Counted from the first letter of the stretch, positions 330 through 8,681 are shown. The stretch is DNA of 50,000 nt from Balanoglossus misakiensis (GCA_040954595.2 JBECUI020000058.1:1-50000); one strand, 5' to 3'. Program-made: numbers and translations. The notes: generated by a model not told the origin, from the letters alone.

Positions 330-471
330 GTAACCGTGGTGACTCTACCCTCTCTACCTTTCCCAAGCGTGACGGTGTGCAACACAAACAAGCTAAAGCG
401 AAGTGCCATTGCGCAGTCTCCGTACAAAGAAATGTTACTGATAGACGACAAACCAATATCACCATACCCAA
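330..471 (+). CDS. DEG/ENaC exon with the post-TM1 FPxVTxCN motif (absent from the ORF track)
   Basis: ttactccag|GTAACC...CCAA|gtaag translates to [47 protein letters not shown]. Confidence 0.9.
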
Positions 472-3400
472 GTAAGATTCTTTAATTCCGTGAAATACAA
501 TAGTATTCCAATATATTGAAATCATTGTCTCTTAAGGAGCTCTGGTTTATTTTGGTATAAATTCTACCAATGGCCCAAATGTTTCTCTATACCTCTCAGG
601 TCCATGCATTCCAGGGGACTTTGCTTGTACTGATGGCGAACTTTGCATAAAACGGTTTCTGTTGTGTGATGGGATCAGACATTGCAGTGGCGATCACAGT
701 GACGAAAGAGGCTGCGAATACGGTATGAACAAATCATGCTGACAAACTTGTTTCATGTCATTTTTGTCACCTAGGCAAAAGACAAAATAGAAATGTATGA
801 TAAGTGTCCGCATGAGGCAAACCAACATTTTCATAAAGTGAGAAATATGATAACAAATTGTGTTTTCGAGAGCCACCACTTATTCATATACTTTTATAGC
901 TAGTTAAATTCGACTTTTCGTGTATAGAGTAACTCCGGACTTATTTCGCCATCATTTTCAAGTATAACTGTGTGTTTATCCACTGTATGACATTACTTAT
1001 TTGATGTTTCTGTCATTTTTTCCCCGGATTTTTGTAACCCCAGGGGATTGTGGGGAGGACTACTTCCGTTGTGAGAATGGAAGTGAGGTGGGTCCGTGCA
1101 TTCCCTTGAGTAAAATATGTGACAGGACCTTGGATTGCTATGAAGGAGAAGACGAACGTGATTGCGGTGGGAATTCCTTTTACATGTTCATTTCTTTAGT
1201 ATTAGAATTATAAGAGGAGATTGAGAGATTATAAGAAAGGTAGTACGGATACACAGGACCCAAATAAACCGTTCGGCCATTAATTGTTAGCGGAGTATGA
1301 TTACAAAATCTATGATTGTCAAGATTAAGTAAAGTTCTTCATCGTGGTTTTTTTGGAGGGCATTGAATATTTTGTTTGTTGTTAACATTATAGTATGCAA
1401 GCCGACCGAGTTTAAGTGCAACACACTGGGCGGTTGTATTCCAAAAAAGGGTCGCTGTGATGACAAAAAGGACTGCGTAGACGGCTCGGATGAAGACAAC
1501 TGCCCGGGTAGGTGAAGTAACGTTTCCCCATCATCCATAATTAGTTCCCACCATCTCCTATGTTTTACACGAATCTGCTCTAAAGCGAATTTCCACGATA
1601 AAGTCGCCATTTTTCTTCGTTACATAAAGCATTTTATTTCGATAATTGCAAATACCTTCGATCTTATCTCAAAGGTACACAGTGTGAAAATGGGCATATG
1701 TGCGACCGGAATAACTGTATAACCACAGAATTTGTCTGTGATGGCCACAATGATTGCAGTGACAAATCTGATGAACGAGATTGCCCGACTGACGGTTTAC
1801 CGGCAGGTAAGAACCATTTTTTTCAGAGATGGTTGATAGTTTGCATACTGCTAGGCAAAAACGCCCCTTTTGAATTAGTGTCCTTCTCCACTCTCCGGAT
1901 CATAGGATGAAAATTGCTACTCTCATGTTTGTTTTACACTTTCCTGGTCACTCTCATGCACTTGAATATATGATAATAAGTCTCACCTATATTAAGACAA
2001 GTTGTCTTATCTTATTCCCTTGTGTGTAGAATTCTGTACAAATGGTGAGTTTCGTTGTGTAAGTGGTGGTTGCATACCAGAGTATTGGAAATGTGATGGA
2101 GAACTTGACTGTTTGGACGGGTCTGATGAACATCCGGTTTTGTGTGGAGACGGTAAGATCACCACAATAGTGTCAAATTTTCTTTTGAAACACATTTCTT
2201 GAAACATGCACAACGACTTGTAAAACAAAATGTGTACACCATACGCAAACCTCCCAATTTACCACGCACTTATATTTTTGTCGTCCTTTGATAGATGGTC
2301 AGTGTGGTGCGGGTAATTTTACATGCGATGGTTCTCGGTGTTTGGACCCCACTGTGAGGTGCGATTACATCTTTGACTGTATTGACAAAAGCGACGAAGT
2401 AGATTGCCGTAAGTATGCCAAGTATAGATTTATCACATACATAATTGCAAAGGTGAGGTAGTATATAGAATTTAACCCCAGGGTTTCTATTGAGGCTCGA
2501 TATATTCCATCAAAACGATCACCTTGACTAACGATAGTCGTCGTCATGTACATTTCAGCTTGTGATAATGGATTCGTCTGTTCAAGTGGATTGTGTATTG
2601 ATTCTGGCTGGTTTTGTGATGGTGATGCTGATTGTGAAGGAGGTGACGATGAAGATGAAGACCGCTGTTCGACACTTAGAGGTATAGTTACATGATCGAC
2701 AAACCTGTTTCAAGAATTCTTGACAATTACACCTGTACGTCATGTAAAGGACATACTTCGAATGCATGTTCATGTACATGTATGCATCAATCTATTAATA
2801 TAATTGGCATGCCCACATTATTAGCTGGAATACTGACAATGATCTATGATGGAAATGTTCTATATCGTCTCAGATTGTAATCAATTCCTGAACACATCAT
2901 CCGGGACTGTTTCATCTCACGGAGCATACCCGGATATGAAGTACCCCGGAAACTTGGACTGTAAAATTGTCATCGACATTCGTCACGGAGGCGCAGTATC
3001 TGTGATGCTGTCATTTACAGACTTTGATCTTGAAGACTCGCCAGATTGCGAGTACGATTATGTTGTGGTAAGTCCAATAATATACTGTCATGTACTTGAT
3101 ACATAAATCGCGCGCACGCATATGACATGATGCAAAGTTGACCTTCTGGACAGGATAAGCTTATTACTGGACTAGGTTTGTTTACTGTGAATTAGTACTA
3201 CCAGAGCCAACGAACGTGCATCTATACCTTAATATACAGAAACTTATGGCGTCTCTCAAGTACATAAGTTTTCATTTTCAGTTGGAGGATGCTGTATCTA
3301 GGCGCTTTTCAGAGAAGTTCTGTGGGCAGCAGCTGGTGCAACCTTGGACATCAGATTCTGGAAGAGTACTGATTAAGTTCCATAGCGATCAATCAGTTGG

Positions 3401-6800: not shown

Positions 6801-8681
6801 GTAAATATGGATGAGTGAAATAAAGGGGGTGACAGTGTCCAAATGATGAGTCATATATGATATATGTAAGATTGAACGAAAGCTGCAACTGACAGGCATC
6901 AGTAAATACATTATTGCTTATTAAAACATTTCCACTTAATTCCCAGTCTTGCGAGGAACATTGTCTGGAACGGGAAATTATTTCGAGATGCGGCTGCACG
7001 ATGTTCATACACGATATAAATGATACCGTTACACCTTGTTCGTTGCTCAACAAAACTCAAGGTAATGTGACATCATATTGTTGATTTGTTTCACACATTT
7101 AGTTCGGTGATTCATAATTTCAATTCAAAATATCAAATATCCTAATACTTGAAATTTAGATACTAGTATAGCATAAGTATGTCCATATCTATTCCGGCTG
7201 AACATGGCAGGATTTTCATTCATTTTCACAATCACTTCTTACACACTTTAATATAACAAGAAACTGTAATGTTCAGAGGACTATCTACTTTAAAATAATG
7301 TTTAGCCATGTATTATTTGATAAGCGAGTAATATTTTCTCTCTTCAAAAGATTTGTGTCATCAATTAATGTATTACCTATTTCAAAAGAACAAGTTACCG
7401 TGTGACTGTGAACAGCCATGTTGGTGAGTTGCATCATATAGTCACCTGCATCTCAATTATTGAAGCCCCAGAGCTGCCAAATTTCACATATTTTTTTCAC
7501 GATAAAATACGTCAAATCTTCTCCCCTTCTCTATTGAGCCATATTGTATTGGCATCAGTTTGTCATCTCTTGGCGACGCATACCACTATAGTTGTGTACT
7601 CTTTGTATGGAGGCTTGCTAAATAGGTGGGGTACGGTTACGTTTATTGGTGGTGAGGATAATTGACAACATCTTAACATCTGGCATTGTGACTGTTTCAG
7701 GGATAAATATTACACTCTGGTATCATCGCAGTCGCTGTGGCCTTCATTTGTGTATTTGGTAAGTAACAAGTACTGCATATGGATTTTGAAAGATTGTGTA
7801 TCACAAGTCGTCAGTAACTGCCATAACAATAAGAAATTTGCTCAATTTCCCAATAATTTGCATTTTCTTCAACGGACATCGTGTACAATAACAAGAGCGC
7901 TTTCATATTATTATTTTTTAAATTTGATTCAGCAACACCTTTTGAGGGCATTACATTCAACAAATATCAAAACTCGTGGTATAAACGATATCAACGCTAT
8001 AAGGTGAGTAAGTGGATTTCAAGTTCTATTTGATAAATATCTTTCGTGCCATTTTCACCAGTGTTTCCTGTGTGTGACGAAAATACCTAATGACCCGACT
8101 TTATAAACCATTTTCTTCGCCTGTTAGTGAAAACTTGGCTGGTTTGGAGATATATTTCCGAGAATTGAACTCTATGAAAATCGTCGAACAGCCAGCCTAC
8201 TCAGTGAGTAGTATTCTTGAAAATCCTATTTTACAATGATGAAGTACATTAATTCCAAAGTACTCATAGACTTTTAATATGTCGAAATAAAGATGATGGT
8301 TATTCTTGAGGAAATCATATTGTTACGAGCAACAATCGGATTTTTGTTGCAGAAAAACCCAGGATGCCTGGAAATCTCGCGAGATCTCTGAAATTGCGTT
8401 CGAGAAAATACCTGCAGTGTGCATTGATCAACGATACATCAAGACCCACTACACTACATATAAACAAACTTTTGTGTTCTTCTCATGTTCACTTTTTTTT
8501 TTTACAGATTGAGCAACTATTTAGCGACATCGGTGGAAGTCTGGGCTTGTACATTGGCCTGTCGATCATCACCGTCTTCGAATTTTTAGAATTCCTCATC
8601 CATATTATCACATTTTTGGCAGCGACCCATCGAGTCAGGCAAGTGCAAAAGAGGCTTCGAGACACTGAATCACAGAATTAG
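330..8681 (+). CDS. DEG/ENaC/ASIC-family (amiloride-sensitive-type) cation channel subunit with inserted LDLa and CUB domains; 5'-partial (N-terminus and TM1 lie upstream of the window)
   Basis: Manually joined GT-AG exons: 330-471, 600-722, 1044-1166, 1394-1507, 1675-1806, 2030-2152, 2295-2408, 2559-2681, 2874-3067, 3282-3453, 3606-3725, 3876-4069, 4185-4365, 4516-4626, 5087-5381, 5490-5599, 5798-5961, 6656-6745, 6947-7061, 7351-7423, 7701-7758, 7933-8003, 8128-8203, 8508-8681. Total 3192 nt in one open frame to TAG. Family hallmarks: [12 protein letters not shown] (post-TM1), [34 protein letters not shown], Cys-rich thumb (SCEEHC...RCGC...CDCEQPC), [12 protein letters not shown], and TM2 [34 protein letters not shown] at positions 1-8 may be the donor of the preceding exon. 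Confidence 0.93.
600..2681 (+). CDS. Seven consecutive single-exon LDL-receptor class A repeats (part of the channel gene)
   Basis: Each exon (114-132 nt, phase 1-1) encodes six Cys and the acidic DxxxDCxDxSDE-type motif, e.g. [37 protein letters not shown]. Confidence 0.93.
2874..4626 (+). CDS. CUB-LDLa-CUB-LDLa module (part of the channel gene)
   Basis: CUB1 = 2874-3067 + 3282-3453 (YPGNLDC...[14 protein letters not shown]...KFCG...[12 protein letters not shown]); LDLa8 = 3606-3725; CUB2 = 3876-4069 + 4185-4365 ([14 protein letters not shown]...CHFDYV...RFCG...[12 protein letters not shown]); LDLa9 = 4516-4626. Confidence 0.92.
3751..3847. repeat. (GAT)n microsatellite in an intron
   Basis: About 32 perfect GAT units between the LDLa8 and CUB2 exons. 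Confidence 0.97.
6205..6597. mobile_element. Intronic hairpin-shaped MITE, probably Tc1/mariner-derived
   Basis: Outer ~70 bp near-perfect inverted repeat (cggttatcatttaagcgtcccgaaacactgataagaactcc... / ...ggagttcttatcagtgtttcgggacgcttaaatgataactg), degenerate complementarity continuing almost to the centre, TA on both flanks, and a right end reading CAGTT on the minus strand. Confidence 0.8.

What the first reader, a model, noticed from the sequence alone, without database searches (positions are those of the whole stretch)
330..8681. DEG/ENaC channel carrying a built-in 9xLDLa + 2xCUB receptor-like cassette inside its extracellular finger
Seen: the exon with the post-TM1 motif FPSVTVCN splices in frame into LDLa x7-CUB-LDLa-CUB-LDLa (1824 nt, ~608 aa). 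The frame then returns to the remaining channel core ([19 protein letters not shown], thumb cysteines, TM2). The modules are therefore nested within the channel domain, not a neighbouring gene. Established: the finger is the most variable, gating-related part of DEG/ENaC proteins (protease sites in ENaC, peptide site in FaNaC). LDLa and CUB are Ca2+-dependent protein-binding modules. CUB+LDLa is the architecture of separate channel auxiliary subunits (NETO1/2, SOL-2, LEV-10) and of the stem of the ENaC-activating protease matriptase. Inference: a channel gated by a protein/lipoprotein ligand or by a matrix tether, or a channel with a fused auxiliary subunit; a homotrimer would display 27 LDLa and 6 CUB domains. 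I know of no characterised channel with this layout, but cannot exclude uncharacterised database entries.
Basis: partly seen in the sequence, partly recalled or inferred. Interest (0 to 1): 0.9.

Follow-up and report, generated by a model that had tools for sequence, protein, structure and literature searches.

The report
Sodium channel with plug-in receptor modules
This animal gene, likely from an acorn worm, encodes a DEG/ENaC sodium-channel subunit with eleven protein-binding modules inserted at or near the site that controls opening of our kidney channel ENaC; it belongs to a large, apparently undescribed family that swaps such modules, which likely tether these channels to outside proteins.

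Summary
Twenty-five GT-AG exons (330-8681, +) form one open frame: post-TM1 motif, 9 LDLa + 2 CUB (1824 nt), a missed 87-nt linker exon, channel core, TM2, stop. TM1 lies upstream of the window. The nesting is conserved: Ptychodera and Saccoglossus models carry full TM1-cassette-core versions. In 81 of 81 testable relatives the modelled modules sit inside the finger, in 32 layouts (LDLa, CUB, kringle, F5/8, PAN, HYR, SRCR, TSP1, ShK). Relatives occur in hemichordates, echinoderms, amphioxus and an acoel, with a separate LDLa gain in snails. AlphaFold models of two relatives close a normal DEG/ENaC fold around the insert, which maps, by inference, to ENaC's GRIP site. Flanking LDLa repeats lack the ligand-binding aromatic; middle repeats often keep it. 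Most likely a built-in, calcium-dependent tether to matrix or mucus proteins that anchors the channel and passes force to the gate (inferred, about 0.45). The fused-NETO reading is not supported. No description found in ten paper searches; one published phylogeny dataset holds members with the cassette trimmed from the alignment. No RNA or functional data were available.

The parts
330..471 (+). Exon 1 in window: end of beta1, beta2 (FPSVTVCN) and finger helix alpha1; the TM1 exon lies upstream of the window
   Evidence: Pfam ASC E 1.6e-5; 63% identical to P0004 179-221
600..722 (+). LDLa 1, positionally conserved; lacks the ligand-binding W/F and one acidic residue
1044..1166 (+). LDLa 2, positionally conserved
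1394..1507 (+). LDLa 3
1675..1806 (+). LDLa 4, with F at the ligand-binding position
2030..2152 (+). LDLa 5, with W at the ligand-binding position
2295..2408 (+). LDLa 6
2559..2681 (+). LDLa 7, with W at the ligand-binding position
2874..3453 (+). CUB 1 in two exons (2874-3067, 3282-3453); acidic calcium-site pattern present
3606..3725 (+). LDLa 8
3876..4365 (+). CUB 2 in two exons (3876-4069, 4185-4365); acidic calcium-site pattern present
4516..4626 (+). LDLa 9
4881..4967 (+).
5087..5381 (+). Channel resumes: clade-specific finger helices ([12 protein letters not shown]), GHQ, first core cysteines
   Evidence: 62-63% identical to hemichordate channels, E 1e-34 to 1e-36; alignment
5490..5961 (+). 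Palm and beta-ball exons (5490-5599, 5798-5961; YGNCFKFN)
   Evidence: tblastn with P0001, P0004, P0081
6656..7423 (+). Thumb exons (6656-6745, 6947-7061, 7351-7423), cysteine-rich
7701..8203 (+). Palm and knuckle exons (7701-7758, 7933-8003, 8128-8203)
8508..8681 (+). TM2 exon (small residue at the DEG site, conserved Asp, G-L-S filter), short tail without PY motif, stop
   Evidence: Pfam ASC E 1.8e-6; TM2 comparison

Best explanation
The gene encodes one DEG/ENaC subunit with a chain of nine LDLa and two CUB modules inserted in its finger, and this chain likely works as a built-in tether that binds matrix or mucus proteins with calcium, anchors the channel and would pass pull or shear to the gate. 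Shown from sequence and calls: one open reading frame across GT-AG exons; nested modules; an intact core (14 core cysteines, Asp and G-x-S in TM2); the same layout in relatives. Predicted: the channel fold closes around the insert. Inferred: the insert lies between finger helices alpha1 and alpha2, the position of ENaC's GRIP domain; it entered by phase-1 exon shuffling; the conserved flanking LDLa repeats form a stalk or adapter, while the middle repeats (L4, L5, L7) and both CUBs bind basic patches of partner proteins; the flexible linkers make force or cross-linking a more plausible route to the gate than allostery; the subunit assembles as a trimer, possibly with paralogues. Nothing about binding, gating or expression was measured.
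For: Gene integrity. Conservation of nesting: 27 of 27 database proteins; 81 of 81 (227 proteins held, 114 with modules plus core, 81 of these also with the beta1-beta2 motif; isoforms and near-copies included); 0 of 114 have a modelled module after the core. Fold: P0006 (9 LDLa) pLDDT 84, pTM 0.70, with residues about 11-130 and 531-880 mostly 90 or above and inter-module linkers below 50; it matches FaNaC 7yvb (Z 33.3, rmsd 3.6, 396 aligned) and gamma-ENaC 6wth_C (Z 33.3, rmsd 3.1, 344 aligned) across the insert. The two-LDLa member P0086 gives pLDDT 91, pTM 0.82. Site: the first LDLa starts 38-58 residues after the beta1-beta2 motif; GRIP lies between alpha1 and alpha2 and acts on a Trp-bearing alpha2 (PMC6197857 passages); a near-invariant Trp opens a helix after the cassette. 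Cassette-free sister channels carry a low-complexity insert at the same place, with paired furin-type sites in 3 of the 4 scanned (P0044, P0048, P0049; P0050 has none). Division of labour in 42 proteins: W/F at the ligand position in 0/42 first, 5/42 second, 0/40 third and 1/28 terminal repeats, against 35/116 middle repeats. Repeats 1 and 2 are positionally conserved (55% and 49% identity against 36% and 35%). Precedent for tethers: ENaC shear sensing needs matrix and N-glycans (10.1101/102756 abstract); MEC-4 tether model (PMC10148893 passages).
Against: No transcript, ligand, localisation or current data for any member. Only 3 of the 9 window LDLa repeats keep the canonical aromatic, and only 11 of 40 CUB domains in the set pass my crude calcium-site pattern. 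The modules are so varied (32 layouts) that a single mechanism may not hold. A RefSeq isoform drops LDLa 1-3 altogether (P0077), and the window gene lacks the terminal LDLa found 80-90 residues before GHQ in most relatives, so the adapter is not obligatory. One Ptychodera paralogue is modelled as two halves (P0059 without core, P0002 without TM1). The models gave no residue-pair error map, so docking of the repeats on the core is not shown. The alpha1/alpha2 mapping rests on motifs and predicted helices, not on a residue-level superposition.
Confidence: 0.45

Rival explanations
1. Protein-ligand-gated receptor channel: a soluble or particle-borne multivalent ligand (lipoprotein, protease-inhibitor complex, microbial surface, pheromone protein) cross-links the three cassettes and opens or closes the channel; paralogues with different cassettes read different ligands.
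For: Rapid module turnover and paralogue expansion in hemichordates. RefSeq isoforms skip single LDLa exons, and all 4096 module-skip combinations in the window gene stay in frame. Middle repeats keep lysine-binding features. SRCR, F5/8, PAN, kringle and C-lectin are recognition modules (general knowledge; C-lectin in P0173).
Against: Linkers between modules and before the core are predicted disordered, a poor path for allostery. No ligand is known. The same modules are equally common in matrix proteins.
Confidence: 0.25
2. The cassette only positions, clusters or stabilises the channel (trafficking, endocytosis, shielding); gating comes from something else, such as pH, Na+, peptides or constitutive leak.
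For: Cassette-free sisters share the same core motifs. The insert site is permissive and independently took up LDLa in snails (AU p 5e-13). CUB/LDLa proteins such as LEV-10 cluster receptors (recalled).
Against: The insert sits at the finger position through which ENaC is gated. The first two repeats have been kept in place since the hemichordate-echinoderm split.
Confidence: 0.18
3. Protease-gated channel: the cassette recruits a protease or acts as a GRIP-like inhibitory wedge that is released by cleavage.
For: Same position as GRIP. Many relatives have R-X-K/R-R sites in the insert (sea stars, the TSP1 group, cassette-free sisters; polybasic stretches seen in acoel and snail members).
Against: The window protein and its LDLa-CUB group (P0003, P0004, P0005, P0081) have no R-X-K/R-R site in the insert.
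Confidence: 0.07
4. A fused auxiliary subunit (NETO/SOL-2/LEV-10-like), or an artefact in which a separate LDLa/CUB gene lies inside an intron of the channel gene.
For: 471-to-5087 skipping is in frame. One split RefSeq model exists (P0059 with P0002).
Against: No signal peptide, start, stop or TM exon belongs to the cassette; introns are 115-321 nt with a single AATAAA among the 15. Nesting is conserved across phyla. CUB is dispensable in most members.
Confidence: 0.05

Closest known systems
Vertebrate ENaC (SCNN1A/B/G/D) and its GRIP domain (PDB 6wth, 9blr; PMC6197857)
   Same: DEG/ENaC core (phmmer E 2e-40 for relative P0001; fold Z 33); 14 core cysteines; an insert between finger alpha1 and alpha2 (position inferred).
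   Different: The insert is 637 aa of folded LDLa/CUB modules plus linker rather than a short protease-cleaved GRIP; no furin site, no PY motif; relatives score below the TIGR00859 cut-off.
C. elegans EGAS-1 to -4 (EGF plus ASC)
   Same: DEG/ENaC proteins joined to an array of cysteine-rich extracellular modules; putative mechanoreceptors in IL2 neurons (PMC9478639); no current in oocytes (PMC10424705).
   Different: EGF repeats follow a signal-like N-terminus in the roughly 400 residues I saw, so they look terminal rather than nested after TM1-beta2. Module type differs. They were not in my trees.
Amphioxus ASC + F5/8 + kringle proteins (domain pairs listed in the supplement of PMC4284660)
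   Same: Same wider clade and modules nested at the same site (P0046, P0082).
   Different: No LDLa or CUB. In the supplement passages I saw they appear only as rows in a table of novel domain pairs.
MEC-4/MEC-10 touch complex with MEC-1, MEC-5, MEC-9
   Same: Matrix-tether model for DEG/ENaC gating.
   Different: There the matrix partners are separate proteins; here the binding modules are part of the subunit. Relatives score below the TIGR00867 cut-off.
Polycystin-1/REJ channels and adhesion GPCRs (recalled)
   Same: Works-like analogy: a conserved membrane signalling unit with a freely shuffled ectodomain of adhesion modules.
   Different: Unrelated folds; their modules are N-terminal, whereas here they form a loop held at both ends inside the channel domain.
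NETO1/2, SOL-2, LEV-10, matriptase stem (layouts recalled)
   Same: CUB and LDLa modules.
   Different: Separate single-pass proteins with CUBs ahead of LDLa; here L7-CUB-L-CUB-L, nested, and CUB is replaced by other modules in most family members.

Membership tests
DEG/ENaC superfamily (Pfam ASC PF00858) | Post-TM1 FPxVTxCN motif and ASC profile match | tested here: met
   exons 1 and 25 above cut-off; full relatives E 1e-61 to 1e-101
DEG/ENaC superfamily (Pfam ASC PF00858) | Seven conserved disulfides (14 cysteines) in the core | tested here: met
   14 cysteines outside the cassette; seven family disulfides per PMC6197857
DEG/ENaC superfamily (Pfam ASC PF00858) | TM2 with DEG site, Asp and G-x-S filter | tested here: met
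   residue roles recalled from ASIC1/ENaC
DEG/ENaC superfamily (Pfam ASC PF00858) | TM1 and pre-TM1 HG motif | not testable with these tools
   upstream of the window and no genome held; present in close relatives P0003, P0004, P0005
DEG/ENaC superfamily (Pfam ASC PF00858) | Palm/thumb/finger fold | tested here: met
   on relatives P0006 and P0086 (model only); the window's own spliced protein was not folded
DEG/ENaC superfamily (Pfam ASC PF00858) | Trimer that conducts Na+ and is blocked by amiloride | not testable with these tools
   needs expression and recording
ENaC subfamily (SCNN1, TIGR00859) | Profile score above the curated cut-off (428) | tested here: not met
   relatives P0004 286, P0001 250 (partial model), P0006 294
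ENaC subfamily (SCNN1, TIGR00859) | GRIP with polybasic cleavage sites; C-terminal PY motif | tested here: not met
   no R-X-K/R-R in the insert and no PPxY in the tail
Nematode degenerins (TIGR00867) | Profile score above cut-off (598) | tested here: not met
   234-280 for the three hemichordate relatives
ASIC | His pair after TM1 and placement in the ASIC clade | tested here: inconclusive
   TM1 exon absent; PDB scores to ASIC1 and gamma-ENaC are tied; no named ASIC or ENaC was in my trees
EGAS (EGF plus ASC) | EGF array at the N-terminus | tested here: not met
   no EGF hit on 24 exons; EGAS N-termini seen
LDL-receptor family | LDLa cluster with six cysteines and acidic calcium cage | tested here: met
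   9 of 9 have six Cys; 8 of 9 keep both internal Asp and the terminal DE
LDL-receptor family | EGF/YWTD propeller, single TM, NPxY tail | tested here: not met
   no such Pfam hit or exon
NETO/SOL-2/LEV-10 auxiliary subunits | CUBs followed by one LDLa and an own TM (recalled) | tested here: not met
   order L7-CUB-L-CUB-L and no own TM

The most novel reading that the evidence does not exclude
An unrecognised class of adhesion ion channels: an old bilaterian branch of DEG/ENaC (acoel, echinoderms, hemichordates, amphioxus, with a convergent gain in snails) uses a phase-1 intron in the finger as a plug-in socket for receptor modules. Dozens of paralogues and splice forms would each couple a different extracellular protein, glycan or matrix tether directly to the gate, as adhesion GPCRs do for G proteins. 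ENaC's GRIP would then be one specialised occupant of the same socket.
Probability: 0.35. Interest if true: 0.92.

Novelty: new variant of a known kind. Interest (0 to 1): 0.78.

Why it matters
DEG/ENaC channels are known to be gated by protons, peptides, bile acids, proteases and force. The long-standing tether model lacks a defined protein link between channel and matrix. Here the candidate link is encoded inside the subunit, at or near the finger site that gates ENaC, in discrete exons that can be removed one by one. That makes tether gating or protein-ligand gating directly testable. It also exposes a sizeable channel family that is mis-named in databases (some entries are called LRP-like) and whose cassettes were trimmed from the one published alignment I could check. 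Natural tolerance of inserts of up to about 1,200 residues at this site suggests a way to build ligand-coupled channels.

Tried and rejected
No genome is held for the window, so the TM1 exon and local paralogues could not be sought. No RNA holder was listed, so no reads were laid; this is no evidence either way. ESM Atlas gave no usable hit for P0004 and did not answer for P0086. The Foldseek 'pdb' library was busy; the VIA second look was used instead, where the channel domain fills the list, so the LDLa fold was not tested structurally. The careful IQ-TREE run did not finish and the quick tree was used (55 of 59 rows, 2 dropped as short and 2 for no motif match). A hidden terminal LDLa exon near 4968-5086 was sought and not found. 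One origin for all LDLa-bearing channels was rejected (p-AU 5e-13), while acoel plus ambulacrarian was neither shown nor rejected (p 0.37) (26 rows picked, LG+G4, so the p values are optimistic). Paper searches that found no description of the layout. Two look-ups for one ENaC phylogeny review were not held; subscription reviews may mention the amphioxus forms. Earlier scan findings: none on this layout. No complex prediction was run: a trimer exceeds the size limit and no partner is known. The nesting count covers only nine locally modelled module types; other Pfam hits near N-termini (fn3 in P0093, chromo in P0012) were not placed and may be fusions or model errors.
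Full report
1. Observation. I read 1-10000 and rebuilt the gene from splice sites. 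Twenty-five exons on the + strand give one open frame of 1092 codons from 330 to a TAG at 8681. All 24 introns are GT-AG; those around the cassette are 115-321 nt; exons are 44% GC and introns 35%. Pfam on 24 single exons found ASC at both ends, nine LDLa exons and two CUB domains, each split over two exons. The start, HG motif and TM1 are upstream of the window. Every LDLa exon and each CUB exon pair begins and ends in phase 1, and all 4096 combinations of skipped modules stay in frame without a stop. This is the usual mark of exon shuffling into a phase-1 intron (established knowledge). Direct skipping from 471 to 5087 is also in frame, and no RNA was available, so the mature transcript is inferred.

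2. Relatives. The first core exon finds hemichordate channels at 62-63% identity. Over the whole core the closest are Glandiceps P0001 and Ptychodera P0002 and P0004, at 59-60%, so the window is likely from an acorn worm. P0004 (XP_070565678, 1431 aa) runs TM1, beta1-beta2, L7-CUB-CUB-L-CUB-L-L, core, TM2; Saccoglossus P0081 and Ptychodera P0005 are similar. A search with the core returned 57 proteins, most with extra modules: kringle, F5/8, PAN, TSP1 and ShK in hemichordates; HYR in a brittle star; SRCR in sea stars; LDLa only in a crinoid; F5/8 plus kringle in amphioxus. A wider search (best 150 of 6227 hits, 47 of them scanned, 10 looked up by name) added nested LDLa-CUB channels in the acoel Symsagittifera, LDLa pairs in the snails Plakobranchus and Biomphalaria, a PAN_4 form in Saccoglossus and a C-type-lectin form from an unnamed record. 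Of 227 proteins held, 114 have a modelled module and the core; 81 also retain the beta1-beta2 motif; in all 81 every modelled module lies between motif and core, in 32 layouts, and none lies after the core (isoforms and near-copies are included).

3. Trees. A quick IQ-TREE on 55 cores groups 42 rows, nearly all LDLa-bearing, from hemichordates and echinoderms (SH-aLRT 95). The window falls in an LDLa-CUB subgroup (99) with Saccoglossus, Ptychodera and Glandiceps; cassette-free ambulacrarian channels and the amphioxus forms lie outside. FastTree on 164 cores joins these groups with the acoel-type LDLa-CUB channels in a 110-row clade (99), while the snail LDLa channels nest among channels without modules. 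On 26 rows chosen afterwards, one clade for all LDLa-bearing channels is rejected (p-AU 5e-13); acoel plus ambulacrarian is undecided (p 0.37). So the site took up LDLa at least twice (inferred). No named ENaC, ASIC or FaNaC was in these trees. Profile scores fall below the ENaC and degenerin cut-offs.

4. Structure and site. I folded relatives because the spliced window protein could not be submitted. P0006 (910 aa, nine LDLa) gave pLDDT 84 and pTM 0.70, with confident N-terminal and core parts and low-confidence linkers. It aligns to FaNaC and gamma-ENaC at Z 33 across the insert. P0086 (601 aa, two LDLa) gave pLDDT 91 and pTM 0.82; its first repeat scores 84-91, its second 65-80. The first LDLa starts 38-58 residues after the beta1-beta2 motif, just past the first finger helices. 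After the cassette a near-invariant Trp opens a short helix about 30 residues before GHQ. In ENaC the GRIP domain lies between alpha1 and alpha2 and packs on a Trp of alpha2 (PMC6197857, passages). I therefore infer that the cassette occupies the GRIP position. Cassette-free sisters have a low-complexity insert there, with paired polybasic sites in three of four scanned. The window protein and its subgroup have no R-X-K/R-R site in the insert.

5. Anatomy of the cassette. All nine LDLa have six cysteines; eight keep the acidic cage residues; L4, L5 and L7 keep the aromatic that canonical LDLa use to bind ligand lysines (role recalled). Across 42 proteins this aromatic occurs in 0/42 first, 5/42 second, 0/40 third and 1/28 terminal repeats, but in 35/116 middle repeats. 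Repeats 1 and 2 are conserved by position across hemichordates and echinoderms (23 proteins). Both window CUBs carry an acidic calcium-site pattern, though only 11 of 40 CUBs in the set pass that crude test. Eleven of 14 N-glycosylation sequons lie in the cassette. Most relatives end the cassette with an LDLa 80-90 residues before GHQ; the window gene has the preceding linker but lacks that repeat, and its 119-nt intron has no room for one. Skipping the linker exon would bring L9 to that distance. RefSeq isoforms of a Ptychodera and a Patiria member skip one to three LDLa exons; such isoforms are normally built on transcript support (recalled, not checked).

6. Mechanism. The core is intact, so a working subunit is likely. 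The modules are binding domains on flexible linkers, in a loop held at both ends on the finger. Tension or cross-linking can cross such linkers; allostery hardly can. With precedents for matrix coupling in ENaC (10.1101/102756, abstract) and MEC-4 (PMC10148893, passages), I favour a built-in calcium-dependent tether that anchors the channel and loads the finger (0.45). Rivals are ligand or particle cross-linking (0.25), localisation only (0.18), protease gating (0.07), and fused auxiliary subunit or artefact (0.05). Against my reading: there are no functional data, the adapter repeats can be lost, one paralogue is modelled as two halves (P0059, P0002), and members may differ in mechanism.

7. 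What is in print. Ten full-text searches returned no paper describing this layout; I saw listings and abstract starts only. Term look-ups in main texts gave no LDL mention in PMC6827283, PMC9822975, PMC10507113, PMC10148893, PMC9949801 and PMC11175523. PMC9234716 names Ptychodera only among sampled species, and PMC8791634 was read in passages on GRIP. The supplements of PMC10507113 hold members of this family, including an LDLa-CUB Ptychodera model, with the cassette absent from the trimmed alignment (one PDF unreadable); its text speaks only of uncharacterised ambulacrarian and cephalochordate channels. The supplement of PMC4284660 lists ASC with F5/8 and with kringle among lancelet domain pairs. 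The two supplements held for PMC4729200 had no relevant hit, and 12 of 16 files of PMC3499355 showed only fn3~ASC. The nearest named precedent is C. elegans EGAS-1 to -4 (PMC9478639 and PMC10424705, passages), whose EGF arrays start at the N-terminus. Subscription papers, bioRxiv supplements and one review I could not open may bear on novelty.

8. Verdict. The feature is real: a member of the DEG/ENaC superfamily that fails the ENaC, degenerin and EGAS membership tests and represents an apparently undescribed, module-shuffling subfamily. Novelty: new variant of a known kind. Interest 0.78.

Noticed in passing
window 9307-29840: A 20-kb satellite of an 87-bp unit begins about 630 nt after the channel's stop codon; about 110 copies run one way (9307-18856) and about 126 the other (18840-29840), 98% matched.
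   Followed up: partly
window 30221-33042, - strand: A glycoside hydrolase family 1 (lactase-like) gene, named by eye from its translation, with a 485-codon open stretch and two similar candidate 3' exons (30535-30837, 30221-30703), possibly mutually exclusive last exons.
   Followed up: no
window 35858-36694, 38670-39467, 41787-42692, + strand: Three tandem, apparently single-exon genes that resemble PP1 glycogen-targeting subunits (PPP1R3/CBM21-like, RVxF-type motifs), named by eye.
   Followed up: no
window 3751-3847: (GAT)32 microsatellite in the intron between LDLa 8 and CUB 2.
   Followed up: no
P0194, P0205, P0210, P0223: Snail DEG/ENaC channels (P0210 unnamed) carry one or two nested LDLa repeats followed by polybasic stretches; they group with module-free channels, so the gain looks independent.
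   Followed up: partly
P0044, P0048, P0049 (P0043 in part): Cassette-free hemichordate and sea-urchin sisters have a low-complexity finger insert with two polybasic clusters, candidates for ENaC-like activation by double cleavage in invertebrates.
   Followed up: partly
P0181, P0137, P0133, P0180, P0196, P0201: An acoel-type group (two named Symsagittifera, the rest unnamed) shares the nested LDLa(-CUB) layout and the post-cassette motif with ambulacrarian members; of possible interest for the placement of Xenacoelomorpha, but support is undecided.
   Followed up: partly
P0173, P0131: Further module types at the same site: a C-type lectin (unnamed record, outside the main clade) and three PAN_4 domains (Saccoglossus).
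   Followed up: no
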